This document shows, piece after piece, positions 14,991 through 60,795 of a stretch of DNA of 64,000 nt. Position 1 is the first letter of the stretch. Each line of letters starts with the position of its first letter. The notes below the pieces were generated by a model, which was not told where the DNA came from, did not search any database, and saw nothing but the letters and a program-made list of their open reading frames with translations. The DNA lies in the NCBI GenBank assembly GCA_947460255.1, contig CANHIS010000002.1, positions 19,625 through 83,624 on the forward strand, written 5' to 3'. Source of the stretch: Bacteroidota bacterium (GTDB lineage: Bacteria > Bacteroidota > Bacteroidia > M30B66). The position numbers were made by a program, and so were the translations under genes.

Positions 14991-17624
14991 ATGGAAATCC
15001 CTAAACAATACAACCCCGCTTCAATAGAAGACAAATGGTACAGTACATGGATGGAAAAAGGACTCTTCCGTTCCGTTCCCGATGGTCGTGAATCTTTCAC
15101 GGTCGTTATTCCTCCGCCAAATGTTACCGGTGTATTGCACATGGGACACATGCTCAACAATACCATCCAAGATGTACTCGTTCGTCGTGCCCGTCTTCAA
15201 GGAAAAAATGCTTGCTGGGTTCCTGGAACCGACCACGCATCCATCGCTACTGAAGCAAAAGTGGTGAACAAATTGCACGAACAAGGCATCGAGAAAAATA
15301 GCCTCAGCCGCGAAGAATTTCTAAAGCACGCTTGGGAATGGACCGATAAACACGGCGGGATTATCCTCGAACAACTCAAGAAACTCGGAGCTTCCTGCGA
15401 TTGGGAACGCACCAAGTTCACTATGGATGACGACATGAACCGCGCCGTTACCAATGTATTCATCGACCTTTACAAAAAAGGCTTGGTGTACCGAGGCGTG
15501 CGAATGGTGAATTGGGATCCAAAGGCGCAAACTGCGCTTTCTGACGAAGAAGTAATCTACCGTGAAACGCCTTCTAGGTTGTTTCATGTGCGCTATCAAA
15601 TCAAAGATTCCGATCAAACAATCACCATTGCCACAACTCGTCCAGAAACCATTCTCGGTGATACCGCAATTTGTGTTCACCCTGAAGATGAGCGTTATAC
15701 AAGCCTCATCGGGAAAACTGTATTTGTGCCTTTGGTGAACCGAGAAATTCCAATCATCGCCGATGAATACGTTGACCGTGAATTCGGAACTGGAGCGCTC
15801 AAAGTAACCCCAGCCCACGATGTAAACGACTACAACCTTGGGATCAAGTACAATCTTCCAGTGGTGGATGTTATTGCTTCCGATGGAACCATGAGCGCCG
15901 CAGCGCAACTCTATATTGGTCGCGACCGATTTGATGTTCGTAAGCAGATTGTGAAAGACATCGATGCAGCTGGTCAGCTCGATAAAATCGAAGACATTAA
16001 AAACAATGTCGGATATTCCGAAAGGACCGATGCTGTGATTGAGCCTAGATTGTCGATGCAGTGGTTCGTGAAAATGGAAGTGCTTGCCAAACCTGCGCTC
16101 GACGTGGTTAACGAAGGCAAGGTAAAGTTACATCCTGCCAAATTCATCAATACGTATAAGTATTGGATGGAGAACGTGAAGGATTGGTGCATCTCTCGCC
16201 AACTTTGGTGGGGACAACGCATTCCTGCTTGGTACGACAACACAGGCGATGTTGTGGTTGCTGCCAATTTGGAAGGCGCCATGGCGGAATTTGCCGCGAA
16301 GGGAAAAAATGTCACAGCTGCCGAAATTCGTCAGGACGAAGACGTGGTTGATACTTGGTTCTCTTCTTGGCTATGGCCGATCACCGTGTTTGATGCTGAT
16401 GCAGTGATTAAAAATCCAGCCGATTTTAATGCGGATCTGAAATATTATTATCCAACCAAAGATCTTGTTACAGCTCCGGAAATCCTCTTTTTCTGGGTGG
16501 CGAGAATGATCATGGCTGGAATGGAATATTGTGGCGACATCCCATTTTCAAATGTGTACCTCACAGGGATCGTGCGCGACAAACAAGGCCGTAAAATGTC
16601 GAAGTCGCTCGGAAATTCGCCCGATCCGATCGAATTGATTGAAAAGTTTGGTGCCGATGGCGTACGTCTCGGAATGCTTTTGACTTCCCCGGCAGGGAAC
16701 GATTTGCCTTTCGATGAAAGCATGTGCGAACAAGGCAGAAACTTCAGCAACAAAATTTGGAATGCTTTCCGTTTGGTGAAAGGATGGACTGTAGAGGATA
16801 AAGAACCTACCCAAGCTTCTCGTGAGGCTACTGCTTGGTTTGGATCGCACTTGGCTGCCACCATCGCCGAAGTGGATGATTTGTTCTCAAAGTACCGCAT
16901 TTCGGAAGCCTTGATGACTTTGTACAAGCTCACTTGGGATGATTTCTGCGCTTGGTATCTCGAAGCGGTGAAACCAGGATTTGAGCAAAGCATCGACCGT
17001 GAAACCTTCGAAGCAACAATTGGATATTTCGAAGATCTGTTGCGTTTGTTGCACCCATTTATTCCGTTTATCTCGGAAGAAATTTGGCAGTATCTCCGCG
17101 AGCGGGAAGACGACAATCTGCTCATCGTGAACCACATGCCAAAGACTGTTGCAGCGGATGCCAAATTGAACGCAGAATTCGATTTGATCCGTGAGGTAAT
17201 TGCTGCTGTGCGTGCTTTCAGAAACGACAAAGGACTTTCTCCGAAGGAAGCTTTGAGATTGAGCTGCAAGAGTCGTTCGGCAAGCAATCAATTGCCATTT
17301 GATGCTGTTTTATTCAAATTGGCAAACCTTGAGGCAATCGATTATGTAAGCGAAAAGCCTGAAGGCACTTTGGCGATGTTGGTGCGCACTGAAGAAATCT
17401 TCTTGCCGGTTGGTGAAATTTCCGATCCAGAAGCGGAGCGCGAAAAATTACAGAAGGAACTCACTTATACAGAAGGTTTCTTGACATCGGTTGAGAAAAA
17501 ATTAAGCAATGAGCGTTTTGTGAGCAATGCAAAACCAGAAGTTGTAGCGATGGAACAGAAAAAAATGCAAGACGCTGTACAACGAATCAAAGTGTTGAAA
17601 GAGCAGCTGGAAGCCTTGGTATAA
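14991..17624 (+). CDS. valS: valine--tRNA ligase
   Basis: HIGH-type motif [13 protein letters not shown], a KMSKS motif, and a C-terminal coiled coil. The start [17 protein letters not shown] is at ATG 14991; the track begins at an upstream TTG. Confidence 0.97.
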
Positions 17625-17664
17625 GAAGAGTTACGAAAATTGGTCTCTGTAATTTCAATGTTTA

Positions 17665-17711
17665 CGAGCTGAATCGTCTCTCTCCAGTGGAGAGAGATAA
17701 GAGAGAGAGGT
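17665..17711. repeat. 47-bp intergenic direct repeat, copy 1
   Basis: CGAGCTGAATCGTCTCTCTCCAGTGGAGAGAGATAAGAGAGAGAGGT, identical to 17772-17818. It contains the hairpin TCTCTCTCC-AGT-GGAGAGAGA. Confidence 0.95.
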
Positions 17712-17771
17712 TTATCGAAGCTTTAGTATAATACGAATTCTGACTATAGGCATCTCCAATCACCATTGCTT

Positions 17772-17818
17772 CGAGCTGAATCGTCTCTCTCCAGTGGAGA
17801 GAGATAAGAGAGAGAGGT
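17772..17818. repeat. 47-bp intergenic direct repeat, copy 2
   Basis: Perfect copy of 17665-17711, 107 bp downstream. It is followed by a second hairpin, CCACGGAC-TAAA-GTCCGCGG, at 17826-17845. Confidence 0.95.
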
Positions 17819-18503: not shown

Positions 18504-19604
18504 TTAAACGTTGAAACGGAAATGCATCACATCTCCATCAGCTACAACATATTCTTTTCCTTCAACGGCAAGCTTTCCATTGTCGCGACAAGCAGATTCA
18601 GATCCAAAGTGAATGAAATCTTGGTAATGAATTACTTCAGCACGGATGAACCCTTTTTCGAAATCTGTGTGAATTACACCTGCTGCTTGGGGCGCTTTCA
18701 TGCCTTTGGTGATGGTCCAAGCGCGAACCTCTTTCACACCAGCGGTGAAATACGTTTGTAAATTAAGCAGGTGATAAGCCGACTTGATCAATTTGTTCAC
18801 GCCAGGTTCTGCCAATCCGATTTCTTCCAAGAATGCCACTTTGTCTTCATACGTTTCCAATGAAGCAATTTCTGCTTCCATTGCAGCTGTAATGATCATG
18901 ATTTCTGCATTCTCCTCAGCTACCGAATTACGCACTGCTTCAACCATCGCGTTGCCCGATTTTGCCGACGCCTCATCCACATTGCACACATAAAGTACGG
19001 GCTTGTTGGTAAGTAAGTACATGTCGTTCGCAAAGTCGATGTCGTCTTGTTTTTCCAAGATCACACTTCTCGCAGATTTTCCTTGTTTGAGCACTTCTTG
19101 ATATTTGCTCAGAATTTCGTGTTGCTTCTTAGCGTCTTTGTCGCCAGCACGGGCTTGCTTTTCAATTTTTTGAAGACGTTTCTCAACTGTATCAAGGTCT
19201 TTCAATTGAAGTTCCAAATCGATCACCTCTTTGTCGCGCACCGGATTTACATTTCCGTCCACATGCACCACATTTGGATCATCGAAACAACGCAAAACAT
19301 GCAAAATCGCGTCGCATTCGCGGATGTTTCCAAGGAATTGATTTCCCAATCCTTCACCTTTCGATGCACCTTTCACCAGGCCGGCGATATCTACAATTTC
19401 AACGGTTGTTGGAACAATTTTCTCCGGTTTTACGAAGTTCGAAAGTGCCGTTAATCGTTCATCCGGTACAGTAATCACGCCCACATTGGGCTCGATTGTA
19501 CAAAACGGGAAGTTCGCAGCTTGTGCTTTAGCGTTGCTGAGACAATTGAAAAGGGTCGATTTTCCCACATTAGGCAAACCAACAATACCACATTTTAAGG
19601 CCAT
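18504..19604 (-). CDS. ychF: redox-regulated ATPase YchF
   Basis: MALKCGIVGLPNVGKSTLFN with a C-terminal TGS-like end DGDVMHFRFNV. It is 366 aa from ATG 19604; the track start at 19628 adds 8 residues. Confidence 0.95.
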   Translation of the reverse strand: MALKCGIVGLPNVGKSTLFNCLSNAKAQAANFPFCTIEPNVGVITVPDERLTALSNFVKPEKIVPTTVEIVDIAGLVKGASKGEGLGNQFLGNIRECDAILHVLRCFDDPNVVHVDGNVNPVRDKEVIDLELQLKDLDTVEKRLQKIEKQARAGDKDAKKQHEILSKYQEVLKQGKSARSVILEKQDDIDFANDMYLLTNKPVLYVCNVDEASAKSGNAMVEAVRNSVAEENAEIMIITAAMEAEIASLETYEDKVAFLEEIGLAEPGVNKLIKSAYHLLNLQTYFTAGVKEVRAWTITKGMKAPQAAGVIHTDFEKGFIRAEVIHYQDFIHFGSESACRDNGKLAVEGKEYVVADGDVMHFRFNV

Positions 19605-19613
19605 GATAAATCT

Positions 19614-19819
19614 GAAAAACGGCGGCAAATATAGTGATTCTGTACCGCTGATTTACGCCATGATTTTATTTGCTTTTAAGGTATTCTGATTCTTTTTTGT
19701 AATACATATTCAACGATTGTGGCGAGCCTTCAGAAACGACTTTTAACCTTGCTCCAACATTGTTTAAATTGCGAAACAACATCGCTGAACCTTTAGGAGC
19801 AACAGCTTTCGTTTTGTCG
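19614..19819. repeat. 206-bp imperfect direct repeat, left copy (ychF-proximal)
   Basis: Aligns without indels to 21353-21558 (offset 1739). I hand-counted 13 mismatches, 12 of them in 19621-19700, with 19727-19819 identical. Confidence 0.9.
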
Positions 19820-19839
19820 ATTTTCGTCACAGTGCTCAT
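19666..19839 (-). pseudogene. displaced 3' fragment of the 127-aa secreted protein gene (57-codon ORF)
   Basis: Hand translation MSTVTKIDKTKAVAPKGSAMLFRNLNNVGARLKVVSEGSPQSLNMYYKKESEYLKSK matches residues about 78-127 of the 21405..21788 product. The first 7 codons are unrelated. Confidence 0.6.
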
Positions 19840-19933
19840 GAATTGAATAATTTATTTGTCTGATCCACTTCATGAAGCTTGTCAAAGCAATGGTTGGTTT
19901 CGAGAAAAGCCGCTGAATTAAAGTCTTCTACAA

Positions 19934-21172
19934 TTAATTTTCGTACTCATTTAACAACCAATTAAACACATTTAAATGTCTTACACCATTGCGGTCTTGA
20001 GTAAATCCGTCTGTTGTGAGCAAATACTTAGGATAGTTGTCATTTACTTTTTCCAATGCTCCAAACTCTCGTTCTCGAGTGCTTTCATCTGTTACCAACC
20101 AAGCTACTTGGTAGTATTCTATTTCGCCTAATGCTGTTTTACAAACAAAGTCTACTTCGTTGTTCCTACTTGTACCTGTCCAAATTTTATTTCCTCTTCG
20201 CAAGAGTTCTAGATAAACAATGTTTTCTAAGATGTGTCCTCGATCGGTAGTGCGTTCTTTACCCACCAAAACATTAAGCAAACCTGCGTCTACTAAGTAG
20301 TATTTTTCTTGGGTAGCAAGTTGCTTTCGCCCTTTCAATTCAAACCGATTTACCTTATAGAATACAAAACTGGCAACCAAGTAATCTAAGTACTTCTCCA
20401 CGGTGGTATTGTGTGTCGTTTGTCCATCGTGTTTTAAAGTTTTAGCAATATTTCCGGGAGAAAGCGGACTACCTATGTTTGATGCAATAAATTTTGTGAT
20501 ATTTCCGAAAGCTCGTTTATCATTGATTTGATGTCGTTGGGTGATGTCTTTTTCGATAATAGTGTTGTAAATAGCCTCCATATATTCATGGATTTTGTCG
20601 TAACCAGCTTCTCGCAGCTCAATTCCTTTAGGCAGAGAAGTTTCGTTTATATAATCAAAAAATAATGACTCATAATTAAGGTATTTCTTGCCAGTGTCTA
20701 TGTTTCTCGCTATTAGATATTCATGAAATGAAAATGGTAAAATAGAAAGTTCAATAAATCGGCCACTTAACAAAGTAGCCAATTCGCTGCTCAATAACAT
20801 GGCATTGGATCCTGTGATGTATAAATCCACATTTTTTTTGACAAACAGCCCATCCACTAGTCGTTCGAATTCCTTCACATTTTGCACTTCGTCTAAGAAT
20901 ACATAAGAAGGTTTCGATAGGTCCAATTGTTCTATGATATAAGAATACAGCCCATCTAAATCAGTAAGAAATCTCCGTAATTCAAATTCCTCAAAGTTTA
21001 AGGAAATGATCTGATTAGGCTGAACTCCCAAATTTTGCAACTCTATTCTATAAAGTTCAAGTAAAGTACTTTTACCCGATCGGCGCAAGCCTGTGACTAC
21101 TTTTATAAGATCTTGGTCTTTGTAAGCCAGAAGTTTTTTTATGTACTGCTTCCTAACGATGAGTCTTGCCAT
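19934..21172 (-). CDS. AAA+ ATPase with C-terminal DUF4143-like domain (COG1373 type)
   Basis: Walker A GLRRSGKSTLL, Walker B YVFLDEVQ, and a C-terminal block GHILENIVYLELLRRG...NEVDFVCK...YYQVAW typical of AAA_14 + DUF4143 proteins. The ATG at 21170-21172 is preferred over the TTG at 21178 used by the track. Confidence 0.88.
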   Translation of the reverse strand: MARLIVRKQYIKKLLAYKDQDLIKVVTGLRRSGKSTLLELYRIELQNLGVQPNQIISLNFEEFELRRFLTDLDGLYSYIIEQLDLSKPSYVFLDEVQNVKEFERLVDGLFVKKNVDLYITGSNAMLLSSELATLLSGRFIELSILPFSFHEYLIARNIDTGKKYLNYESLFFDYINETSLPKGIELREAGYDKIHEYMEAIYNTIIEKDITQRHQINDKRAFGNITKFIASNIGSPLSPGNIAKTLKHDGQTTHNTTVEKYLDYLVASFVFYKVNRFELKGRKQLATQEKYYLVDAGLLNVLVGKERTTDRGHILENIVYLELLRRGNKIWTGTSRNNEVDFVCKTALGEIEYYQVAWLVTDESTREREFGALEKVNDNYPKYLLTTDGFTQDRNGVRHLNVFNWLLNEYEN

Positions 21173-21192
21173 CTGCAAATATAATTCATAGA

Positions 21193-21229
21193 ATTATTAA
21201 AACTTGCACAATTTGCATGTTTTAATAAT
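21193..21229. promoter_or_regulatory. perfect 11-bp inverted repeat upstream of the ATPase gene (candidate operator)
   Basis: ATTATTAAAAC-N15-GTTTTAATAAT, 21-57 nt upstream of ATG 21172. A TATATTTG box (the TAnnTTTG form) lies between it and the ATG. Confidence 0.4.
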
Positions 21230-21352
21230 AGCTCTAGTTGTGTGTTTTCGATGGCGCATGTTTGAGTTTGAGCATCGAAACAACGCCATTAGTTAACGAT
21301 GTTACTAAGTTATGCAAATCAACAAGACAAATTTTGAAGCTACAATACATCA

Positions 21353-21558
21353 GAAAAACGGCGTCACAAACAGAGATTCTGTACCGCTGATTTACGCCAT
21401 GATTTTATTTGCCTCTCTGGTATTCTGATTCCTTCTTATAATACATATTCAACGATTGTGGCGAACCTTCAGAAACGACTTTTAACCTTGCTCCAACATT
21501 GTTTAAATTGCGAAACAACATCGCTGAACCTTTAGGAGCAACAGCTTTCGTTTTGTCG
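21353..21558. repeat. 206-bp imperfect direct repeat, right copy (inside and downstream of the intact 127-aa gene)
   Basis: See the left copy at 19614-19819. Weaker similarity extends about 14 nt further left in both copies, up to the ychF start codon in the left copy. Confidence 0.9.
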
Positions 21559-21788
21559 CCAGGCTTCAGCACAATAAGTTCCTTTTCAGAATTGTCGGGC
21601 AGTAATAGCAAAATCGTTATTGGAACTAAACCTACATTTTTAGCACTTGCCTCAAACGCGAAATCTTGTCCACCACCTAAGTAAAACTGTTCGTTCGCCG
21701 GAATTCTAAGATTCGATTTTATAGTGCTCGGGAGATCGAACGAACTTAATGAGAGCATTATTGCTAACGTAAAAAGTAATTTTTTCAT
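21405..21788 (-). CDS. hypothetical secreted protein (127 aa)
   Basis: Signal peptide MKKLLFTLAIMLSLSSF and coding-like composition. Its last 51 codons lie in the right direct repeat. Confidence 0.7.
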   Translation of the reverse strand: MKKLLFTLAIMLSLSSFDLPSTIKSNLRIPANEQFYLGGGQDFAFEASAKNVGLVPITILLLLPDNSEKELIVLKPGDKTKAVAPKGSAMLFRNLNNVGARLKVVSEGSPQSLNMYYKKESEYQRGK

Positions 21789-21898: not shown

Positions 21899-22336
21899 AT
21901 GACCAAGTTTCTTAGTAAAATCAACGAATCTTGGCAATTCAAGCATTCTAGCTTTGCGCATAGCCAGATTGAAATATCCGATTACCACAAATTCGATAAC
22001 CAATGTTTCAGAGGATTTATTTTTTTCGATTTCGATCAAGTGGAAACTACGCCACTAGGCCCAAACCAATTTTGGGATTATTTTCTGCTCAATGAAGATT
22101 ATCAAGATACACTCACCATCGTAAAATCCGATTTAACATCATCATTTCCAGAGTCGGAATTTGCCATCACTACAAACAATCTTTCATATTTCTACGAATC
22201 ATTAACCACCAATGGGGTTGTGATTGAAGGTCGTGCCGTGTACGATCCAATTTTCGATTCTCAAATCATTACACCATTTGAGAGCTACGGTTTCTCGCTG
22301 CCTTATCCAATAATTTTGTTAACATTGATCAGTTAG
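21899..22336 (+). CDS. hypothetical protein (145 aa)
   Basis: The ORF has the same orientation as mqnD and ends 23 nt upstream of it. It is preferred over the overlapping minus ORF 21797..22039. I recognise no family. Confidence 0.45.
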   Translation: MTKFLSKINESWQFKHSSFAHSQIEISDYHKFDNQCFRGFIFFDFDQVETTPLGPNQFWDYFLLNEDYQDTLTIVKSDLTSSFPESEFAITTNNLSYFYESLTTNGVVIEGRAVYDPIFDSQIITPFESYGFSLPYPIILLTLIS

Positions 22337-22359
22337 GATTCAAATTTCAGTCTTGAATT

Positions 22360-54490: not shown

Positions 54491-55078
54491 TTAAAGTTCC
54501 TCGGCAACAACTTCTTCCACTCCAGGAACCATTCGCTTGAGCAAGTTTTCGATACCTGATTTCAGGGTAACTTTCGACGATGGGCAACCCGAACAACTGC
54601 CTTGCAGAGCAACAGTAACAATGCCATTTTCAAATGATCTGAAAGTAATTGCACCTCCATCTTGTTCAACCGCCGGACGGATATATTCCTCTAAAATCTG
54701 GGTGATGGCTTCTTCAGGTGAATCGGGCTGAATGGCCTTTGCTTCAGCCTCAACAGCATCCACCTTTTCAGGATAAACTTCAATCACTGGAAGCCCTTTG
54801 GTGAAATAGTCTTGTAGAAATTCACGCACAGCCGACACAATCTGCGACCAATCAACGGTTTGTGATCTGGTGATTGAAACGAAATTGTTACTAAAAAACA
54901 ACGATTTCACATATCCACCTTTGAATAATTCTTGCGCCAATGGTGCGCCGGATGTTTCCTCAGCATTCAGATATTCAACCTGTTTCATCGGTTCAATGAT
55001 CATTCTATTGGCAACAAATTTCATCACTTCCGGATTCGGCGTGGCTTCTGCGTAAACTAAAGTCGGTGTAAATGGCAT
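54491..55078 (-). CDS. NifU/Nfu family Fe-S cluster assembly protein (Nfu_N + NifU C-terminal domain)
   Basis: YAEATPNPEVMKFV at the N-terminus, C-terminal IRPAVEQDGGAI and the CSGCPSS motif. The start is chosen at ATG 55078. Confidence 0.85.
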   Translation of the reverse strand: MPFTPTLVYAEATPNPEVMKFVANRMIIEPMKQVEYLNAEETSGAPLAQELFKGGYVKSLFFSNNFVSITRSQTVDWSQIVSAVREFLQDYFTKGLPVIEVYPEKVDAVEAEAKAIQPDSPEEAITQILEEYIRPAVEQDGGAITFRSFENGIVTVALQGSCSGCPSSKVTLKSGIENLLKRMVPGVEEVVAEEL

Positions 55079-55233
55079 ACAATTATTTCTAGGCTGCAAA
55101 GATAACGCGGAAAGTTGATCTTGGTTGAGGACTTTTGAAATATTCACCATTAAATTGTGCTTAAGCATTTAAGAATTTTGAAATGATTTTGCAGACTATT
55201 TATTGAGTGAATTCGCTTTACATTTGGACTTCG

Positions 55234-56280
55234 ATGCGCAATAAAAAATTGAAATATATTTCATTCTTCACGCTATTGATTGCGTTAATTGTCGCCATTT
55301 TTGCGATTAATCAAAATCAACGTGATTTTTCAATTTCATTCTACCATTGGAAATCCGAATTTTCACCTTCGAACCATGATTTGAAATTACTGCAGGAGTG
55401 TCAAGTTAATCAACTTTATCTGCATGTTTTTGATGTCGACAAAGCTCCGGGAACTCAATCGCCAATTCCTAAAGCTAAACTTAAATTTCAAAGTAATTTC
55501 CCTCCGGGGATAGCTGTCATTCCTACTGTATTCATCACTCAGCGCACCTTCGAAGATGCAGGTAGTGTGAATATTTCTGATTTGGCCAAGAATATCGTAC
55601 AACTTTCTCGACAAATTACTGATGCTCAAAAGCTCGTTTGGAAGGGCTTTCAGATAGATTGCGATTGGACAGGAGGTTCAAAACTAACCTATTTCTCATT
55701 TTTGGAAGTCTTGAAAAAAGAATTAGGAAATGAAATTCCATTGTCGGTTACCATTCGTCTACATCAGATCAAATACCCAGAAAAAACAGGAGTTCCACCT
55801 TGCGATCGAGGTGTTTTGATGTTTTACAATATGGGGGATTTTAAAAAATATTCAAAGAGTAATTCTATTTTCGATGCCAGTGTAGCAAATCTCTATTTAG
55901 ATCGATTACGCGAATATCCAGTGAAATTAGATTATGCTTTGCCTGCCTTTTCTTGGGCAATTTTTTACAAGTATGGAAAAGTAGAAAAATTGCTTTCCGA
56001 TCAACAAATTCCTGGTCTGCTCAATTCTGGAAGTTTTATCCAAAAAGAGGATCAGTTAATTTGCCAAAACAATTTACTGCTCGATGGAATCTACTTCCAA
56101 AGAGGCGATATTGTGAAGATAGAATCGGTTTCACCTGCATTGTGTAAAATTGCAGCCGATCAAATTGCGCCTCATGTAAATTCTAGCGATTTTCAAGTAA
56201 TTTTTTACCACATTAGCTCCTCCGAAATTCAAAATTATGCACCCGCTGATTTCAAAGATATCCTTCATTCTTTTCGTTAG
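55234..56280 (+). CDS. hypothetical membrane-anchored protein (single N-terminal TM)
   Basis: MRNKKLKYISFFTLLIALIVAIFAI followed by about 320 aa with alternating beta/alpha-like segments. I recognise no family. The track starts at GTG 55207. Confidence 0.6.
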   Translation: MRNKKLKYISFFTLLIALIVAIFAINQNQRDFSISFYHWKSEFSPSNHDLKLLQECQVNQLYLHVFDVDKAPGTQSPIPKAKLKFQSNFPPGIAVIPTVFITQRTFEDAGSVNISDLAKNIVQLSRQITDAQKLVWKGFQIDCDWTGGSKLTYFSFLEVLKKELGNEIPLSVTIRLHQIKYPEKTGVPPCDRGVLMFYNMGDFKKYSKSNSIFDASVANLYLDRLREYPVKLDYALPAFSWAIFYKYGKVEKLLSDQQIPGLLNSGSFIQKEDQLICQNNLLLDGIYFQRGDIVKIESVSPALCKIAADQIAPHVNSSDFQVIFYHISSSEIQNYAPADFKDILHSFR

Positions 56281-58576
56281 TTTAATTTTCCTTCCTCAAA
56301 GATCTCCTGAGGTAATTGGTTGTGGAGGCGGAGATTATGAAGACTTACGTGCGACTTCATTGTTTATTCCTGAAATGATTCAGACCAATCGGTTCGATCC
56401 TTTCTTTTTAAGTATTTACGATTATTACGGAGAATATGGACAAAATATCCCAGGCAGAACTATCGTTGAAGGTAAATCTCAGGATGATATCAATTTGGAT
56501 GAGTGGTCAACTTATTTTACTGGTGTAGAAAGAATTCAAATCAATGAGATTGTCTATCAGTTGTCTGTTTCAGCAATGGATTCAATGGGATTGGTTGCGC
56601 AGAAAAAGATTTCCAACCCAATTGGAATTTACAAAAGTGCAGTTGGAAAAACGCAATGGTTAGACGGATTTAAATACTTGAAATTTGCTAAACAAATCGA
56701 GAAAGCTGTCTACACAAATCCATGGAGTTGGCAGGACGAACCTATAGATACAATCGCCTTAGAGAAATTAAGAATTCAAGGCTTAAAGGATTATATTTCT
56801 TGTAAATCAGATTTTTTAAAATTACGCTACGGCTTTCAAGTGGCACGTTTAAATTACGCATTGGGGAATTATGCTGAAGGAATTGCATTTGTAGAGAAGA
56901 ATTACCCATTCAAACCTGAACAAGGATTTATGTATTTCCGCACCCATGGCTACGAAGCGGCGTGTCATGTGCGCTTAAAGAATTATCCGAAAGCCAATTT
57001 GTGGTATGCGCGATTGTATGATTTGGGTGAAACTTATAAAATGGAAGCTTTCCAGAGTTTTCATCCCCAGAATGATGCAGAATGGGCGCAAACCTTAGCG
57101 TTGGCGGAAACTCCACGCGACCAAGAATTGTTGTGGCATTTGTTTGGTGTGTATGCAGATCCAATTCGTGGAATGCAAGAAATCTCTAAGATTAATCCTA
57201 ATTCCGATTTGCTTCCATTGTTATTGGTTAGAGCAGTAAGTATTGCAGAATTTAATTTGTCTGAGTCACTCAATTATGTAGGCAATGATTTCGCATTTGT
57301 CACCCAAGAAAATATTCCGACTGAATTCACACCCGATCCATTGTTTTCTTGGAATTCGATTAAGGCTGATCGAATTGTTCAATTGAGAGAAACTATCGAA
57401 ACTATCGCTCCGAAAAGAAAAGATGATCAAAGCATTTGGTTAATGTCGGATGCCTTTATTTATTGGCTATCAGGAGATCTAGAAAATTGCTTGGAATTTA
57501 CATCTGCTGCAGAAGCTTTAGGAAAGAACAATTTCATGATTCAAGCCCAAGCAGCCATTCACAAATTGTTGGTTCGATTTGGCAAGGTGAAGCAAATTCA
57601 AGCCGCTGATGAAGCAGAAATTCTCAAATTAATTACGCAATTGCAAGTTGGTGAATATGGTGTGGAGCGTCATGCAAATGCATTGAATTATGTCCTGAGA
57701 AAAATGAAGCCCTTGTATGAACAAAGAGAGGATTTCATTATGGCAGAGTTGGTGAATCCCGACATTTACACTTATTACAATTCCAATGATGAAGTGCAAG
57801 GCATGATCGATTTTATGTTAAAACCTGATCATTCAACCTTTCGTCAATTTATTATTGAACGTTATCCATTGAAAATTGAAGAATTGTATGACATCCAAGC
57901 TGTCGGAATGATTTATCAATACAAATTTGACGAGGCAATTAGCATTTACAAAAATCATCCAAAGGCTGGAATGGACACCTTGCTTGGAAACCCATTCAAC
58001 ATTGGAATTGCAGATTGTCACGATTGTGATCACGCGAAAGTTCAGAAAATGAAATATTCGAAACGCACCTTCGCTGAGAAAATGATCGAATTAAAAAACA
58101 AAGGTGATAAAGAGAAAGATCCGAAAGAACGTGCGAACAATTATTTCCTTTTTGCCAACGGATTGTATAACATGACATATTATGGAAATGCGCGTTTGGT
58201 TTCTGCAACACCAGTAAATTGGGATTTTATGGACTCCAATCGTTTCAGTGGTTACGATAATGAAAAGCGACCAACTACAAGTTATTACGACTGTTCGATG
58301 GCTGAAATGTATTATTTAAAAGCATTGGAGCTTTCGACCGACAAAGAATTCCGTGCAAAAATGATGTGGATGGCAGCAAAATGCCAACACAATCAATGGC
58401 TCGAATCTTCATATGTTTACAATGTTACCGGCGATTTTAGCTCAGGAGAACATTTTGCTGCAATGAAGAAATTGTACTACGACACAAAGTATTTTCAAGA
58501 GGTAATTAATGAGTGCGGTTATTTTTGTCAATACATAAATCCAGGTCAAAAAAGCTGCATTAAAAATCAAGAATAA
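56237..58576 (+). CDS. hypothetical large lipoprotein-like protein (779 aa) with a CHDCDH motif
   Basis: The N-terminus MHPLISKISFILFVSLIFLPQRSPEVIGCGGG looks like a signal peptide or lipobox. The body is largely helical-looking, and the Cys/His cluster ADCHDCDH lies at 58016-58033. It overlaps the previous gene by 44 nt. Confidence 0.65.
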   Translation: MHPLISKISFILFVSLIFLPQRSPEVIGCGGGDYEDLRATSLFIPEMIQTNRFDPFFLSIYDYYGEYGQNIPGRTIVEGKSQDDINLDEWSTYFTGVERIQINEIVYQLSVSAMDSMGLVAQKKISNPIGIYKSAVGKTQWLDGFKYLKFAKQIEKAVYTNPWSWQDEPIDTIALEKLRIQGLKDYISCKSDFLKLRYGFQVARLNYALGNYAEGIAFVEKNYPFKPEQGFMYFRTHGYEAACHVRLKNYPKANLWYARLYDLGETYKMEAFQSFHPQNDAEWAQTLALAETPRDQELLWHLFGVYADPIRGMQEISKINPNSDLLPLLLVRAVSIAEFNLSESLNYVGNDFAFVTQENIPTEFTPDPLFSWNSIKADRIVQLRETIETIAPKRKDDQSIWLMSDAFIYWLSGDLENCLEFTSAAEALGKNNFMIQAQAAIHKLLVRFGKVKQIQAADEAEILKLITQLQVGEYGVERHANALNYVLRKMKPLYEQREDFIMAELVNPDIYTYYNSNDEVQGMIDFMLKPDHSTFRQFIIERYPLKIEELYDIQAVGMIYQYKFDEAISIYKNHPKAGMDTLLGNPFNIGIADCHDCDHAKVQKMKYSKRTFAEKMIELKNKGDKEKDPKERANNYFLFANGLYNMTYYGNARLVSATPVNWDFMDSNRFSGYDNEKRPTTSYYDCSMAEMYYLKALELSTDKEFRAKMMWMAAKCQHNQWLESSYVYNVTGDFSSGEHFAAMKKLYYDTKYFQEVINECGYFCQYINPGQKSCIKNQE

Positions 58577-58605
58577 TTACATTGCAAAAGAGTAGGAGAG
58601 AAGTA

Positions 58606-59862
58606 CTATTCTTCATCCTCAATTTTAATCGATTGTTCGTCTTGAATCGACATAGACGGCGTTCCATTAAAATCTGTCACTTTTCCTGTTACATAAATCG
58701 TTTTCCCTATCAATTCTTCATGTGGTAAATAGCTGAAATTGATCAATTGATCTTTGAAAATGCTTACAGTGAAAATTTGGTTTGGAAATGATTTATCTAA
58801 ATTCAGAAAAACATTTCCCTTCGAAGAAAGTTTCGTACTCACAACAGTGCCGCAAACAGTTATTGTCTCATTTTTTCCAGCGTATAATTTTGCCTGCACT
58901 GTATTAAAATGATTTCTTGGCAATGATGTTGGATCCAATGGTTTTACATCCGTCATTTCTTTTGGTGCCATAAAAAGCTTCGGATCCTTCATGGCTTCTA
59001 ACAATTGCTCTTCTTCATCAGGTAAATTTGGAAAGAAGTTAATGCCCGTTAATTTTTCCAAACTGTCAATACTCACTGCATAATATTCTGCTGGATATTC
59101 ACATTTTTTGTTGGGCATCAAGAATGCAACTGCACGCTGATTTTTTCGATCCACTGCCATTTTGTAGTAAAATGCTGGAATGCTCGGTTTGTGAATAGCT
59201 CTTTCAACGCGAGGCAAACCATCTCTTAACAAAGGACCAGTTACAATCATTACGGGAGTTTGGTTTCTTTCTGCGTATGATCGCGTCATGTCTTCCAATT
59301 TTGCCCAGCTAATTCTATTGAAATCCGCTAATTGTGGCGACATATTCGAATAAAAATAGCTTTCAGAAAGTGCTTTTGCCGACCATCTGAAATCAGCCGA
59401 TGGCGCTAAATGTCCCCGATCGAAGCCAAATCCATCATATTTTATATTTCCATCTGCAAGGGTGTCGCGAATAAAATAATCTCTGTCATTGCAACTTCCT
59501 GTTTTTACAAGTGGATCAGGTCTGAAATCGTTGCTGCGTCCGATACTGCCGTTCTTTACATCAGGCGAAACTACATGTGCCACCCAAATGGCTTGTTCGT
59601 GTTTTTCACTGTAAACCAAACTCATGAGCGAATGCTTTACCAAATCGTCTTGTGTCGCCAACTCTGGCAATCCCCAAGAATTAATCTCATTGCTCCAATA
59701 ATTTAATTTAAGATCCTCAAGTTTGGTTTTTAATTCTTTTTCTTGATTATTCAGAATCGTAATTTCATTATTTATTTTCTCAATTTCTGCTGGGTAAGTA
59801 ACCTGAGAAATAAGATTGAAATGAATGAGCATTATTGCAATTAAGGACCAGATCTTGTGCAT
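58606..59862 (-). CDS. secreted DNA/RNA non-specific endonuclease (beta-beta-alpha-Me) with a C-terminal OB-fold-like domain
   Basis: Signal peptide MHKIWSLIAIMLIHFNLISQ, an N-terminal coiled coil, the catalytic motif FDRGHLAPSADF, and a C-terminal block VCGTVVSTKLSSKGNVFLNLDK...IYVTGKVTDFNGTPSM typical of OB-fold nucleic-acid-binding modules. Confidence 0.86.
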   Translation of the reverse strand: MHKIWSLIAIMLIHFNLISQVTYPAEIEKINNEITILNNQEKELKTKLEDLKLNYWSNEINSWGLPELATQDDLVKHSLMSLVYSEKHEQAIWVAHVVSPDVKNGSIGRSNDFRPDPLVKTGSCNDRDYFIRDTLADGNIKYDGFGFDRGHLAPSADFRWSAKALSESYFYSNMSPQLADFNRISWAKLEDMTRSYAERNQTPVMIVTGPLLRDGLPRVERAIHKPSIPAFYYKMAVDRKNQRAVAFLMPNKKCEYPAEYYAVSIDSLEKLTGINFFPNLPDEEEQLLEAMKDPKLFMAPKEMTDVKPLDPTSLPRNHFNTVQAKLYAGKNETITVCGTVVSTKLSSKGNVFLNLDKSFPNQIFTVSIFKDQLINFSYLPHEELIGKTIYVTGKVTDFNGTPSMSIQDEQSIKIEDEE

Positions 59863-59880
59863 TTTATTTTTTTGAATTGA

Positions 59881-60795
59881 TTATTTTTTTAAAAGAAATG
59901 TCACAATTTCAGGAAATCTTTTCGCCCAGCTTTCTTCACTGTGTGCTTCACCAGTATATTTTGAAACGAGAAGGTGCCCTTTGGGAAATCCTTTATTGAT
60001 CAGATAACTAGTAGCTAAATCTTGGTAAGGTTCATACCATGCATCTAAAGTTTCAGTGCCAAAATCGAAATACAACCTATAAGGAGGATTTAGTGGTATT
60101 TTCTCATCCATCCAAGTAATTAAAGCTGTCGGAATTGAAGGATTATTTTGCTTTAAGCAAACAGGCCAATGGGTAGAAATACAAGCTGCTGCGCTAAAGT
60201 AATCTGGATATCTTAGAATGGTGTAAAGTGAAATCAATCCACCCATACTAGATCCTGCAATAAATCTATTTTCTTTGTTGCCTAATGTTCTGAATTCCTT
60301 GTCGATTTTTGGAATTAATTGGTCAATAAGAAAATCAGTATAATTATCCGAAAGAGGCTTCCCACCTCTGTCTTTGATGATTGTATCTTGCAAATCCTTA
60401 TTCATTTTGTAAAATGGTTCTTCGGGCATGTATTCTTGGAATCTTTTTGGTGAATTCCAAATTCCAACAACAATACATTCATCAATAATTCCTTTTTTTG
60501 AAAGTTCTGTGATGGTTTCATCTACTCTCCATTCATTGCCTCCGTAAGAAAGTTTTGCATCGAAAAGGTTTTGGCCATCGTGCATATAAATAACCGGGAA
60601 TCTTTTTAATGAATCTTTATCATAATTTTCAGGCAACCAAACATCCACATTTCTTGTTTCTATTTTATCCCAAGAAAGTCCTGTTAATCTTACGATTTCA
60701 CCAGACGAAGGAATAGGCAATTGCGCAGTTAATTGAAATGTCAAAAAAAATAAAAATGATAAAATGATGCTTGACCTGTTCATTATCTTTCCCAT
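59881..60795 (-). CDS. secreted esterase family protein (PF00756-like alpha/beta hydrolase)
   Basis: Signal peptide ending LTAQ, with PVIYMHDGQNLFD and GSSMGGLISLY. It is a paralog of the catalytic part of 43910..45307. Confidence 0.8.
   Translation of the reverse strand: MGKIMNRSSIILSFLFFLTFQLTAQLPIPSSGEIVRLTGLSWDKIETRNVDVWLPENYDKDSLKRFPVIYMHDGQNLFDAKLSYGGNEWRVDETITELSKKGIIDECIVVGIWNSPKRFQEYMPEEPFYKMNKDLQDTIIKDRGGKPLSDNYTDFLIDQLIPKIDKEFRTLGNKENRFIAGSSMGGLISLYTILRYPDYFSAAACISTHWPVCLKQNNPSIPTALITWMDEKIPLNPPYRLYFDFGTETLDAWYEPYQDLATSYLINKGFPKGHLLVSKYTGEAHSEESWAKRFPEIVTFLLKK

What the first reader, a model, noticed from the sequence alone, without database searches (positions are those of the whole stretch)
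19600..21558. A single-gene islet (AAA_14/DUF4143-type ATPase) bracketed by 206-bp direct repeats with an att-like mismatch gradient and no recombinase
Segments 19614-19819 and 21353-21558 align without indels at an offset of 1739. Each holds about 50 nt of ychF-proximal intergenic sequence plus the last 51 codons of the 127-aa secreted-protein gene. Only the right copy is attached to the rest of that gene. The left copy is a displaced fragment next to ychF. I hand-counted 13 mismatches. Twelve lie in the intergenic and stop-proximal 80 nt (19621-19700), one lies at 19726, and the inner 93 nt (19727-19819) are identical. This is the pattern expected when an element integrates into the 3' end of a gene by crossover within a shared core and supplies its own version of the gene end. 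It is not the pattern expected from a simple recent tandem duplication. The 1.53 kb between the repeats contains only one gene, an ATPase whose DUF4143-like C-terminal domain I recall being classed with restriction-endonuclease-like (PD-(D/E)xK) folds. Sampled rows of this segment look AT-richer than the flanks. COG1373-type ATPases are numerous and patchily distributed in Bacteroidota and archaea, and their function is unknown. This locus suggests that the gene arrived as, or within, a mobile unit, possibly one that mobilises itself or is mobilised in trans.
Basis: partly seen in the sequence, partly recalled or inferred. Interest (0 to 1): 0.65.

Follow-up and report, generated by a model that had tools for sequence, protein, structure and literature searches.

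The report
ATPase gene inserted with long target duplication
A horizontally travelling single-gene cassette (an ATPase listed as an untested phage-defence candidate) was inserted long ago between two housekeeping genes together with a 262-bp duplication of the target, and the same long flanking duplications recur around this gene in many other Bacteroidota, an insertion mode so far described mainly for restriction-modification genes.

Summary
19614-19819 and 21353-21558 match at offset 1739 with exactly the 13 mismatches listed. The repeat is really about 262 nt (19557-19819 / 21297-21558) and also includes the first 16 codons of ychF.

- **Insertion:** Fourteen loci from more distant relatives have the empty site (small gene, about 60 nt, ychF). 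A 92%-identical relative (L095) has the same insertion.
- **Mismatch gradient:** It is not att-like. The coding part of the repeat is kept alike within each genome by gene conversion (18 concerted sites, 0 orthologous). The outer part is an old decayed copy of the ychF start, shared by both genomes (15 orthologous sites, 0 concerted).
- **The gene:** It matches AAA_14 and DUF4143, and PADLOC candidate PDC-S01. It is 75-88% identical across Bacteroidota classes and always starts at a covarying 37-nt palindrome just upstream of its promoter. In some genomes it sits in integron-type cassette arrays.
- **Recurrence:** Direct repeats of at least 40 nt bracket the gene in 43 of 145 usable loci. A 60-locus subset gave 15, against 2 of 200 shifted control windows.

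The closest known phenomenon is "insertion with long target duplication" of restriction-modification genes. The insertion mechanism is inferred, not shown.

The parts
18504..19604 (-). ychF (366 aa), intact. The real start is the ATG at 19604-19602.
   Evidence: Pfam MMR_HSR1 and YchF-GTPase_C. Orthologous and syntenic in L001-L014 and L095.
19557..19819 (-). Downstream copy (D) of the 262-nt target duplication. It holds ychF codons 1-16 and the 61-nt spacer in their native state, plus a displaced copy of the last 51 codons of the 127-aa gene (19666-19819).
   Evidence: In the spacer and ychF part, D agrees with the empty-site relatives at 13 of the 14 sites where an outgroup is available and the two copies differ.
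19820..19933 (-). 3' trailer of the insert (114 nt), not conserved. No attC-like hairpin was detectable.
   Evidence: Only 78.6% identical to L095. No homology in 160 other loci. DNA folding z-scores of -0.5 and -1.3. Not similar to the duplicated block.
19934..21172 (-). ATPase gene (412 aa from the ATG). Domains AAA_14 and DUF4143. PADLOC candidate PDC-S01.
   Evidence: pN/pS 0.06 against L095. More than 8000 homologs, 75-88% identical across Bacteroidota classes.
21176..21183 (-). TATATTTG, which matches the Bacteroidetes -7 promoter box TAnnTTTG, 4 nt before the ATG.
   Evidence: Read. The box sits in the same position in most of the 80 loci listed. The consensus is from my own knowledge, and the promoter was not tested.
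21193..21229 (-). 37-nt palindrome (ATTATTAAAACATGCA-N5-TGCAAGTTTTAATAAT on the gene strand). It marks the 5' edge of the unit conserved across the whole family. Probably an operator.
   Evidence: I11. DNA homology in 87 of 160 loci starts exactly at its outer edge. The arms covary while keeping 90-100% complementarity. Hairpin z-score -4.6. 57/57 identical to L095 together with the promoter.
21230..21296 (-). 5' leader of the insert (67 nt). It begins TTAACTAATGG right after a host G, which resembles the G|TTATnnnnAATGG cassette boundary of the same gene in integron-type arrays.
   Evidence: 63/65 identical to L095, more conserved than the flanking genes.
21297..21558 (-). Upstream copy (U) of the duplication. 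It holds the functional last 51 codons of the 127-aa gene (21405-21558), then a copy of the spacer, then a decayed copy of ychF codons 1-16 (21297-21344).
   Evidence: The derived changes are shared with L095.
21405..21788 (-). 127-aa gene (signal-peptide-like N terminus, no Pfam match), intact.

Best explanation
SHOWN. A 1477-nt piece of foreign DNA (19820-21296) lies between the 127-aa gene and ychF. It consists of a 67-nt leader, a palindromic operator-like site, a promoter, one ATPase gene and a 114-nt trailer. It came in once, in an ancestor of this organism and of the lineage represented by L095. The insertion is accompanied by a direct duplication of about 262 bp of target DNA, running from codon 77 of the small gene to codon 16 of ychF. 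Because of the duplication, both neighbouring genes kept an intact copy of their ends. The two copies then evolved in two zones. In the zone carrying the small gene's 3' end, the copies are repeatedly homogenised within each genome by gene conversion. In the zone carrying the spacer and the ychF start, the copy that lost its function (next to the insert's leader) decayed. This two-zone history produces the mismatch gradient. The gene itself is kept under purifying selection. It belongs to a family that moves between Bacteroidota classes. In some genomes it is a cassette in integron-type arrays, and it is unusually often bracketed by long duplications of local DNA.

INFERRED (mechanism). This is an 'insertion with long target duplication', not att recombination or classical transposition. 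The route I think most likely is as follows. The cassette left an integron-type array. Its 5' boundary (G|TT) was joined to ychF codon 16 by an integron-integrase-type strand exchange at a secondary site; such exchanges are resolved by replication. The other end was then joined 262 bp upstream, at a CGAC microhomology, either by a template switch or by an unequal exchange with the cassette-free sister duplex. The resulting product is the one that leaves ychF and the small gene intact. The protein probably represses its own promoter through the palindrome. Its cellular role (defence candidate) is untested.
For: - **Empty site:** 14 loci from relatives show the small gene, a 60-62-nt spacer, ychF and TPM, with conserved gene order on both sides.
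- **Same insertion in a relative:** L095 is collinear with the window at 92.4% identity, with its own 245-nt repeat at 92.7%. Run X8 also holds a relative carrying the insert, about 94% identical.
- **Extent of the duplication:** it reaches into ychF.
- **Two zones:** alignment columns 35-208 have 18 concerted and 0 orthologous sites. Columns 216-284 have 15 orthologous and 0 concerted sites. In that second zone D matches the outgroups at 13 of the 14 sites where an outgroup is available.
- **Purifying selection:** pN/pS is 0.06.
- **Family mobility:** 75-88% amino-acid identity across classes. Unit GC is 34.4% and lower than the flanks in 95 of 123 loci. DNA homology is bounded by the palindrome and the stop codon even between the closest non-orthologous copies.
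- **Recurrent long repeats:** in a 60-locus subset, 15 loci against 2 of 200 shifted control windows. In the full set, 43 of 145 loci have such repeats, about 31 of these are two-copy, and about 14 have an intact host ORF on one side only.
- **Insert size:** narrow, 1341-1551 nt in most two-copy loci.
- **Cassette status:** in L019 each repeat's GTT tail is complementary to the AAC head of the next repeat. The neighbouring cassettes encode SIR2-like and SoFic-like proteins, and L026 has a group II intron reverse transcriptase.
- **Left junction:** GTTAACTAATGG lies 68 nt upstream of the palindrome. Other loci have GTTATnnnnAATGG at 61-69 nt upstream.
- **Right junction:** it reads GAAAAT|CGAC. 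GAAAATCGAC also occurs at the ychF breakpoint, and CGAC occurs at both breakpoints (sequences).
- **Precedent:** PMC2853133.
Against: - The joining mechanism is not observed. No integron integrase is seen in the window or in the arrays I sampled.
- No attC-like hairpin can be recognised in the window's 3' trailer. It may have decayed, since this trailer is only 78.6% identical between the two lineages.
- The junction motifs are short and were noticed after the fact.
- In L139 the repeat ends about 20 nt before the G|TT boundary, so cassette boundaries are not always the joints.
- A short repeat like GAAAATCG was not seen at the joints of young insertions L088, L109 and L048.
- A clean empty site was obtained only for the window's locus. 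For L088 the relative L185 has the repeated segment once and no ATPase, but its downstream context differs.
- Synonymous divergence of the ATPase between the window and L095 (0.19) is lower than that of ychF (0.30). This is unexplained and could mean later exchange of the insert.
Confidence: 0.7

Rival explanations
1. Site-specific (att-type) integration. An element carrying its own copy of the small gene's 3' end recombined within a shared core, and was mobilised in trans by an integrase encoded elsewhere.
For: The repeat contains a gene 3' end and has an identical 93-nt stretch next to a diverged stretch. The C-terminal residues of the two copies (QRGK and LKSK) are both natural alleles among orthologs.
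Against: The repeat continues into ychF codons 1-16, and that part is a decayed pseudo-start. Identity in the 'core' results from gene conversion that happened separately in two lineages. Repeats around other copies of the gene differ from locus to locus and include 5' ends and internal segments. No recombinase gene lies in the insert, and the surroundings are syntenic housekeeping genes.
Confidence: 0.04
2. Campbell-type homologous integration. A circle containing the ATPase gene plus one copy of the target region, excised from a relative by recombination between its flanking repeats, entered this lineage by a single RecA-dependent crossover.
For: Long direct repeats permit excision as a circle and re-entry at the homologous site of a relative. 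The D copy's last codons carry a different natural allele (LKSK). The ATPase's synonymous divergence is lower than that of ychF, which would fit later exchange of the insert among relatives.
Against: It does not explain how the first duplication arose, nor the different duplications at many unrelated sites. The decayed ychF start, the leader and both joints are shared with L095, so a single ancestral event is sufficient.
Confidence: 0.1
3. Autonomous single-gene mobile element. The ATPase with its PD-(D/E)XK-like domain itself cuts the target at two distant staggered positions and inserts its own gene, using the palindrome as its recognition end.
For: It is the only gene in the insert. The conserved DNA ends exactly at the palindrome. 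Insert sizes are narrow. Long duplications have been linked to nuclease-encoding units before (PMC2853133).
Against: The palindrome lies 67 nt inside the insert's edge here, and at variable distances elsewhere. It overlaps the promoter region like an operator. No matching site is present at the 3' end in most loci. The strand expected to carry the (D/E)xK lysine reads YYQV[AS] throughout this clade. About 70% of loci show no flanking duplication.
Confidence: 0.1
4. Coincidence or artefact. Either an unrelated small tandem duplication later received an insertion at its joint, or the assembly created the repeat.
For: The right joint reads like a duplication joint with a 4-nt microhomology (CGAC).
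Against: The association is recurrent: 15 of 60 loci against 2 of 200 control windows. The arrangement appears in independent assemblies, with the identical 93 nt at roughly double depth as expected for a true two-copy repeat. Isolate genomes also show such repeats (L043 Geofilum, L061 Algoriphagus).
Confidence: 0.04

Closest known systems
Insertion with long target duplication of restriction-modification gene units (Nobusato et al. 2000, cited in Furuta, Abe and Kobayashi 2010, PMC2853133)
   Same: A small defence-type gene unit without integrase or transposase. An empty site exists in a related genome. The direct repeats are tens to hundreds of bp of target DNA (46-423 bp in that paper; 262 bp here and 40-508 bp in other loci). 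Repeat length and sequence differ from site to site. One reported case was a single gene, mcrA. The mechanism is unknown.
   Different: The cargo is not a restriction-modification system but a single AAA_14/DUF4143 ATPase gene with its own operator-like palindrome. The host is Bacteroidota. The same gene is also an integron-type cassette elsewhere. The sample here is about 145 loci of one gene family, which gives a frequency (about 30%) rather than single cases.
Integron gene cassettes, including defence cassettes of sedentary chromosomal integrons (bioRxiv 10.1101/2024.07.02.601686)
   Same: In L019 and L026 the same ATPase unit sits in an array of about 135-nt repeats with cassette-specific AAC/GTT boundaries, beside SIR2-like and SoFic-like cassettes. 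It carries its own promoter, as some defence cassettes do. The left joint in the window falls at a G|TT.
   Different: The window's copy is solitary and lies between housekeeping genes. It has no recognisable attC or integrase, and it is flanked by a 262-bp target duplication, which integron recombination is not known to produce.
Genomic islands that integrate into the 3' end of tRNA or protein genes by tyrosine recombinases
   Same: Direct repeats that contain a gene 3' end, and an intact gene restored on one side.
   Different: There is no recombinase and no common att core. The repeat also contains the neighbouring gene's 5' end. Repeat identity is due to gene conversion.
PADLOC candidate PDC-S01 / COG1373 ATPases
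   Same: Full-length match to the PDC-S01 model (E 9.5e-144), with an ATPase fused to a PD-(D/E)XK-class domain. PDC-S01 is reported as the fourth most common 'defence' entry in prokaryotes and as frequently transferred (PMC12988326).
   Different: In the papers I could search, I found no mention of how the gene moves, of the palindrome, or of flanking duplications.

Membership tests
Insertion with long target duplication (criteria of Furuta et al. 2010) | A related genome has an empty site in which the repeated sequence occurs once | tested here: met
   L001-L014: small gene, 60-62-nt spacer, ychF, with a single copy.
Insertion with long target duplication (criteria of Furuta et al. 2010) | Direct repeat longer than 30 bp, derived from the target | tested here: met
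   262 nt, and both copies align to the empty sites.
Insertion with long target duplication (criteria of Furuta et al. 2010) | Insert under 20 kb with no integrase, transposase or phage genes | tested here: met
   1477 nt with one ORF, which matches only AAA_14 and DUF4143.
Insertion with long target duplication (criteria of Furuta et al. 2010) | Insert contains restriction and modification genes | tested here: not met
   There is no methyltransferase or restriction gene. The locus works like that class but is not an RM unit.
att-type integrative element | Recombinase gene in or beside the element | tested here: not met
   The insert holds only the ATPase. The flanks are syntenic housekeeping genes in relatives.
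att-type integrative element | Common core sequence at the element ends in different hosts | tested here: not met
   The flanking repeats differ in every context.
Integron gene cassette | attC site (R''...R' imperfect palindrome) at the 3' end of the cassette | tested here: inconclusive
   Clear in L019 and L139. In the window's trailer there is no significant hairpin and only a weak CCATTGCTTTGAC match.
Integron gene cassette | Cassette boundary at G|TT, with the tail complementary to the cassette's own R'' | tested here: inconclusive
   The left joint is G|TTAACTAATGG at the expected distance from the palindrome. The complementary R'' is not clearly present.
Integron gene cassette | Located in an array next to intI/attI | tested here: not met
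   The window's copy is solitary. Arrays are seen only in other genomes, and no intI was seen in the 13 kb sampled.
PDC-S01 (PADLOC) | Match to the family model over its full length | tested here: met
   PDLC04787, E 9.5e-144, residues 3-411.
PDC-S01 (PADLOC) | Protects against phage | not testable with these tools
   It is reported as an unvalidated candidate (PMC12988326).
PD-(D/E)XK nuclease domain (DUF4143) | Pfam DUF4143 match above the gathering score | tested here: met
   86.1 bits against a cut-off of 28.1. The family is listed as PD-(D/E)XK in PMC3424549.
PD-(D/E)XK nuclease domain (DUF4143) | Catalytic D...(D/E)xK residues | tested here: inconclusive
   E316, E322 and D341 are invariant. 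The next strand reads YYQV[AS] with no lysine, also in 42-45%-identical plasmid homologs. The structure model is too poor to decide (pLDDT 59.6).
Classical DNA transposon / insertion sequence | Transposase gene, terminal inverted repeats and a short fixed-length target duplication | tested here: not met
   There is no transposase domain. The insert ends are not inverted repeats of each other. The duplication is 262 nt, and lengths vary between loci.

The most novel reading that the evidence does not exclude
COG1373/PDC-S01 ATPase cassettes are a widespread class of single-gene mobile units that enter chromosomes outside integrons by a replication-coupled reaction that duplicates 40-500 bp of target. 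The reaction would be driven either by the encoded ATPase with its nuclease-like domain, or by integron-type strand exchange resolved with a template switch. If so, this is the mechanism behind the long-unexplained 'insertion with long target duplication', and part of what is counted as a very common defence gene is a selfish element.
Probability: 0.2. Interest if true: 0.85.

Novelty: new member of a known kind. Interest (0 to 1): 0.6.

Why it matters
Insertion with long target duplication has been known from genome comparisons since 2000 (Nobusato et al., as cited in PMC2853133), but its mechanism is unknown and examples are few. This locus shows the same signature for a different cargo, one of the most abundant uncharacterised "defence candidate" genes. 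The family also supplies many natural replicates: about 40 of 145 sampled loci, of different ages, with a sharply bounded conserved unit and a link to integron-type cassettes. That makes the mechanism testable by comparing joints and by insertion assays.

The locus is also a clean natural example of how gene conversion and selective decay can mimic an att-like mismatch gradient. This is a caution for island-boundary prediction.

Tried and rejected
- **Exact look-ups:** the window's own 127-aa protein and ATPase were not on record. I used homologs instead.
- **Excision or empty-site variant in the same populations:** I laid public runs on the locus, but only assembled unitigs were available. 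These break at the repeat, so excision cannot be seen.
- **attC in the window's trailer and leader:** DNA folding gave no signal. I did not build a covariance model from the L019 repeats, because they are 89% identical to each other and would only find their own family.
- **Whether the 3' trailer is a further copy of the target:** it is not (score 22 against a shuffle mean of 21).
- **Structure prediction of the ATPase:** low confidence (pLDDT 59.6). Foldseek matched only the AAA+ part (ORC/Cdc6, STAND, clamp loaders), so the nuclease question stays open. There is no sequence relative in the PDB.
- **A second clean empty site (L088 against L185 and L186):** L185 lacks the ATPase and has the repeated segment once, but its downstream context differs. 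This is only partial support.
- **Short duplication at the joints of young insertions (L088, L109, L048):** none seen.
- **Plasmids and phages as carriers:** only distant homologs (47% identity or less), mostly on Acinetobacter plasmids. None explains this copy.


Full report
**1.

The window contains one two-copy direct repeat at offset 1739. In 19614-19819 against 21353-21558 there are exactly 13 mismatches, at 19625, 19628, 19630, 19632, 19635, 19674, 19676, 19678, 19679, 19693, 19696, 19699 and 19726. The stretch 19727-19819 is identical. The sequence occurs nowhere else in the 64 kb.

The left copy carries the last 51 codons and the stop of the 127-aa gene. Only the right copy is joined to the rest of that gene (21405-21788). 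Between the copies lies one gene, 19934-21172 on the minus strand, which matches AAA_14 and DUF4143. It also matches the PADLOC candidate PDC-S01 over its full length (E 9.5e-144). The insert is AT-rich (35.6% GC, 1.6th percentile of the window), although the neighbouring 21.6-22.3 kb is similar.

**2. It is an insertion, and the predicted empty site exists**

Orthologs of the 127-aa protein at 69-89% identity were found. I read fourteen contigs that encode four of these orthologs. All fourteen show the small gene, a 60-62-nt spacer and ychF; where the contig reaches far enough, TPM follows. Upstream gene order is the same as in the window, and there is no ATPase gene.

A closer relative, L095, is collinear with window 22345-18000 at 92.4% identity. 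It carries the same insert between the same genes, with its own repeat of 245 nt at 92.7%. A metagenome run (X8) also holds a relative with the insert, about 94% identical. The insertion therefore predates the split of these lineages and is absent from the more distant relatives sampled.

**3. The duplication is about 262 nt and spans two genes**

I aligned both copies from both genomes with six empty sites. A local alignment places its end at ychF codon 16 (19557 in the native copy, 21297 in the other). The score was 45, against a shuffle mean of 17.9 and a maximum of 33.

In the copy next to the insert's leader (U, 21297-21558), the ychF start has become GTA and the reading frame is broken. 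It is a decayed fragment, not a gene end supplied by an element. The true insert is 19820-21296, 1477 nt.

**4. What makes the mismatch gradient**

I classified the variable sites among the four repeat copies (window U and D, L095 U and D).

| Alignment columns | Window D coordinates | Concerted sites (copies agree within a genome, differ between genomes) | Orthologous sites (U copies share one state, D copies the other) |
|---|---|---|---|
| 35-208 | 19816-19643 | 18 | 0 |
| 216-284 | 19635-19568 | 0 | 15 |

- In the second zone, 13 of the 15 sites have an outgroup. At 12 of those 13, D carries the state of all four outgroups; at column 221, L001 differs.
- One further orthologous site, column 31, lies at the repeat's edge. 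There it is U, not D, that matches the outgroups.
- The inner part is therefore homogenised by gene conversion, separately in each lineage.
- The outer part records old decay of the non-functional copy, which happened before the lineages split.
- In the window the conversion tract ends near 19726, so its D copy keeps a few older differences, including the LKSK C-terminal allele. In L095 the tract runs further.

This explains the pattern without any att crossover.

**5. The gene is a sharply bounded, horizontally moving unit**

- **Distribution.** The protein has more than 8000 relatives. It is 75-88% identical in Saprospiraceae, Sphingobacterium, Prolixibacteraceae, Flavobacterium, Crocinitomicaceae, Chitinophagaceae and others. 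From general knowledge of proteome divergence between Bacteroidota classes, this is far higher than expected for vertical descent.
- **Boundaries.** In 160 loci from genomes and metagenomes, DNA similarity to the window starts at the outer edge of a 37-nt palindrome (window 21193-21229) in 87 loci, and within a few bases of it in most others. It ends within about 25 nt before, or a few nt after, the stop codon. Even the closest non-orthologous copies (86-88% amino-acid identity) share nothing beyond 14 nt upstream and 8 nt downstream of these limits.
- **Palindrome and promoter.** The palindrome arms covary while staying 90-100% complementary. A TAnnTTTG box follows, a few bases before the ATG. 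I read this as an operator over the gene's own promoter, which is an inference.
- **Composition.** Unit GC is 34.4 +/- 2.6% and lower than the flanks in 95 of 123 loci.
- **Selection.** Between the window and L095 the gene is under purifying selection (pN/pS 0.06). The palindrome plus promoter is 57/57 identical, the leader 63/65, and the trailer only 78.6%.

**6. Long flanking repeats recur around this gene**

- In a first set of 60 usable loci, 15 had a direct repeat of at least 40 nt within 700 nt on either side of the unit. Only 2 of 200 shifted control windows in the same loci did, and both were in one repeat array.
- In the full set, 43 of 145 usable loci have such repeats, 40-346 nt by BLAST and up to 508 nt after extension.
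- About 31 of these are two-copy within the locus. About 14 overlap a long host ORF on one side only.
- The duplicated host DNA can be a gene 3' end (L088, L089), a 5' end (L043, L078, L085), the 3' end of a convergent gene (L041, L042) or an internal part (L061).
- The non-duplicated insert is 1341-1551 nt in most of these loci, against 1296 nt for the conserved unit.
- For L088, a relative without the ATPase (L185) has the repeated segment once, but its downstream context differs, so that test is only partial.

**7. Link to integron-type arrays**

In L019 (a Prolixibacteraceae genome) the unit is one of at least 13 cassettes separated by about 135-nt repeats. Each repeat's GTT-tail is complementary to the AAC-head of the next repeat, for example GTTATAGCC ... 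GGCTATAAC around the ATPase. This is the signature of cassette boundaries. Neighbouring cassettes encode SIR2-like and SoFic-like proteins. The related locus L026 contains a group II intron reverse transcriptase.

GGCTATAAC lies 8-12 nt after the stop codon in 23 loci. GTTATAGCC lies 60-230 nt upstream of the palindrome in about 15 loci.

In the window, the host sequence ends ...ATCG and the insert begins TTAACTAATGG, 68 nt before the palindrome. This closely resembles the G|TTATnnnnAATGG boundary found 61-69 nt upstream in other loci. No attC-like hairpin can be recognised in the window's trailer.

At the other joint the sequence reads GAAAAT|CGACAAAACG. GAAAATCGAC is also the sequence at the ychF breakpoint, and CGAC is common to both breakpoints. 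These junction readings are short and were made after the fact, so I treat them as leads.

**8. Mechanism**

Shown:
- A single old insertion with a 262-bp target duplication.
- Later gene conversion in one zone and decay in the other.
- Maintenance of the gene by purifying selection.

Inferred:
- The event belongs to the class called insertion with long target duplication, described for restriction-modification units of all types, including a single mcrA gene. Repeats there were 46-423 bp, and the mechanism is unknown (PMC2853133).
- My preferred route is as follows. A cassette from an integron-type array was joined at its G|TT boundary to ychF codon 16. The second joint formed 262 bp upstream at a 4-nt microhomology, by a template switch or an unequal exchange with the cassette-free sister duplex. 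That product keeps both neighbours intact and would be the one to survive.
- I give the descriptive account high confidence and this specific route perhaps 0.35-0.4.

Rivals:
- Campbell-type re-entry of an excised circle from a relative. This is possible for later spread but does not explain the origin.
- Self-insertion by the encoded protein. This is not excluded. However, the palindrome is internal and promoter-associated, and the clade lacks the canonical lysine (YYQV[AS]).
- att-type integration, which is contradicted by sections 3, 4 and 6.
- Artefact, which is contradicted by independent assemblies.

**9. What the protein is**

The N-terminal part is an AAA+ ATPase with Walker A motif GLRRSGKST. 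Foldseek's best matches are ORC/Cdc6, STAND and clamp-loader ATPases, but the model is poor (pLDDT 59.6).

DUF4143 is classed with PD-(D/E)XK folds (PMC3424549). E316, E322 and D341 are invariant. PDC-S01 is reported as the fourth most common "defence" entry in prokaryotes but is unvalidated (PMC12988326). Distant homologs sit on 229 plasmids, 173 of them from Acinetobacter.

**10. Verdict**

- **Observation:** confirmed, and extended from 206 to about 262 nt.
- **Interpretation:** the gene did arrive as a mobile unit without a recombinase of its own. The att-like reading of the gradient is wrong.
- **Novelty:** a new member, with a new cargo and a new phylum, of a known but mechanistically unsolved kind of insertion. 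It comes with an unexpected link to integron-type cassettes and a family-wide frequency of about 30%.
- **Interest:** 0.6.

Noticed in passing
window 21193-21229: A 37-nt palindrome upstream of the ATPase promoter is conserved in all of about 160 loci. Both arms change together, with 90-100% complementarity kept at positions that carry three or four different base pairs. Probably an operator for the ATPase itself.
   Followed up: partly
L019 1-13215; L026: An integron-type array of at least 13 cassettes in a Prolixibacteraceae genome, with about 135-nt attC-like repeats. Cassettes include this ATPase, a SIR2-like protein, a SoFic-like protein and a glutamine cyclotransferase. L026 has a group II intron reverse transcriptase in the related array. 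No integrase was seen in the 13 kb held.
   Followed up: partly
window 19820-19830 and 19557-19566: The right joint of the insert reads GAAAAT|CGAC. The 10-mer GAAAATCGAC is also the ychF sequence at the other breakpoint. This could be a 4-nt microhomology joint or a remnant of a short 7-8-nt duplication. No equivalent was seen at three younger insertions.
   Followed up: partly
window 21230-21296: The 67-nt leader between the duplication and the palindrome is 63/65 identical to L095. That is more conserved than ychF (93%) or the ATPase gene (95%), and it contains a TTTCGATG...CATCGAAA stem. Its function is unknown.
   Followed up: no
window 21899-22336 (deletion point near 22317-22351): The 145-aa ORF is the remnant of a 347-368-aa Por_Secre_tail gene that is intact in L095 and in more distant relatives. 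The window lacks about 610-640 nt of it.
   Followed up: partly
window 17610-17818: Two tandem copies of a 102-107-nt unit, each containing the palindrome TCTCTCTCCAGTGGAGAGAGA, lie between valS and the TPM gene. More distant relatives (L007, L008, L013) have an 802-aa CotH/LTD/Por_Secre_tail gene at this spot. L095 lacks that gene, like the window.
   Followed up: no
window 19934-21172 versus L095 5001-6242: Synonymous divergence of the ATPase gene between the two lineages (0.19) is lower than that of the adjacent ychF (0.30). This might reflect codon composition, or later exchange of the insert between relatives.
   Followed up: no
window 55000-60000: A second AT-rich stretch (1.5-kb windows down to 34.4% GC), as low as the ATPase insert.
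   Followed up: no
L183 (Acinetobacter plasmid pACI-b25a) and 172 other Acinetobacter plasmids: Homologs of the ATPase at about 41% identity are common on Acinetobacter plasmids. In L183 the gene sits between a replication gene and an IS30 transposase.
   Followed up: no
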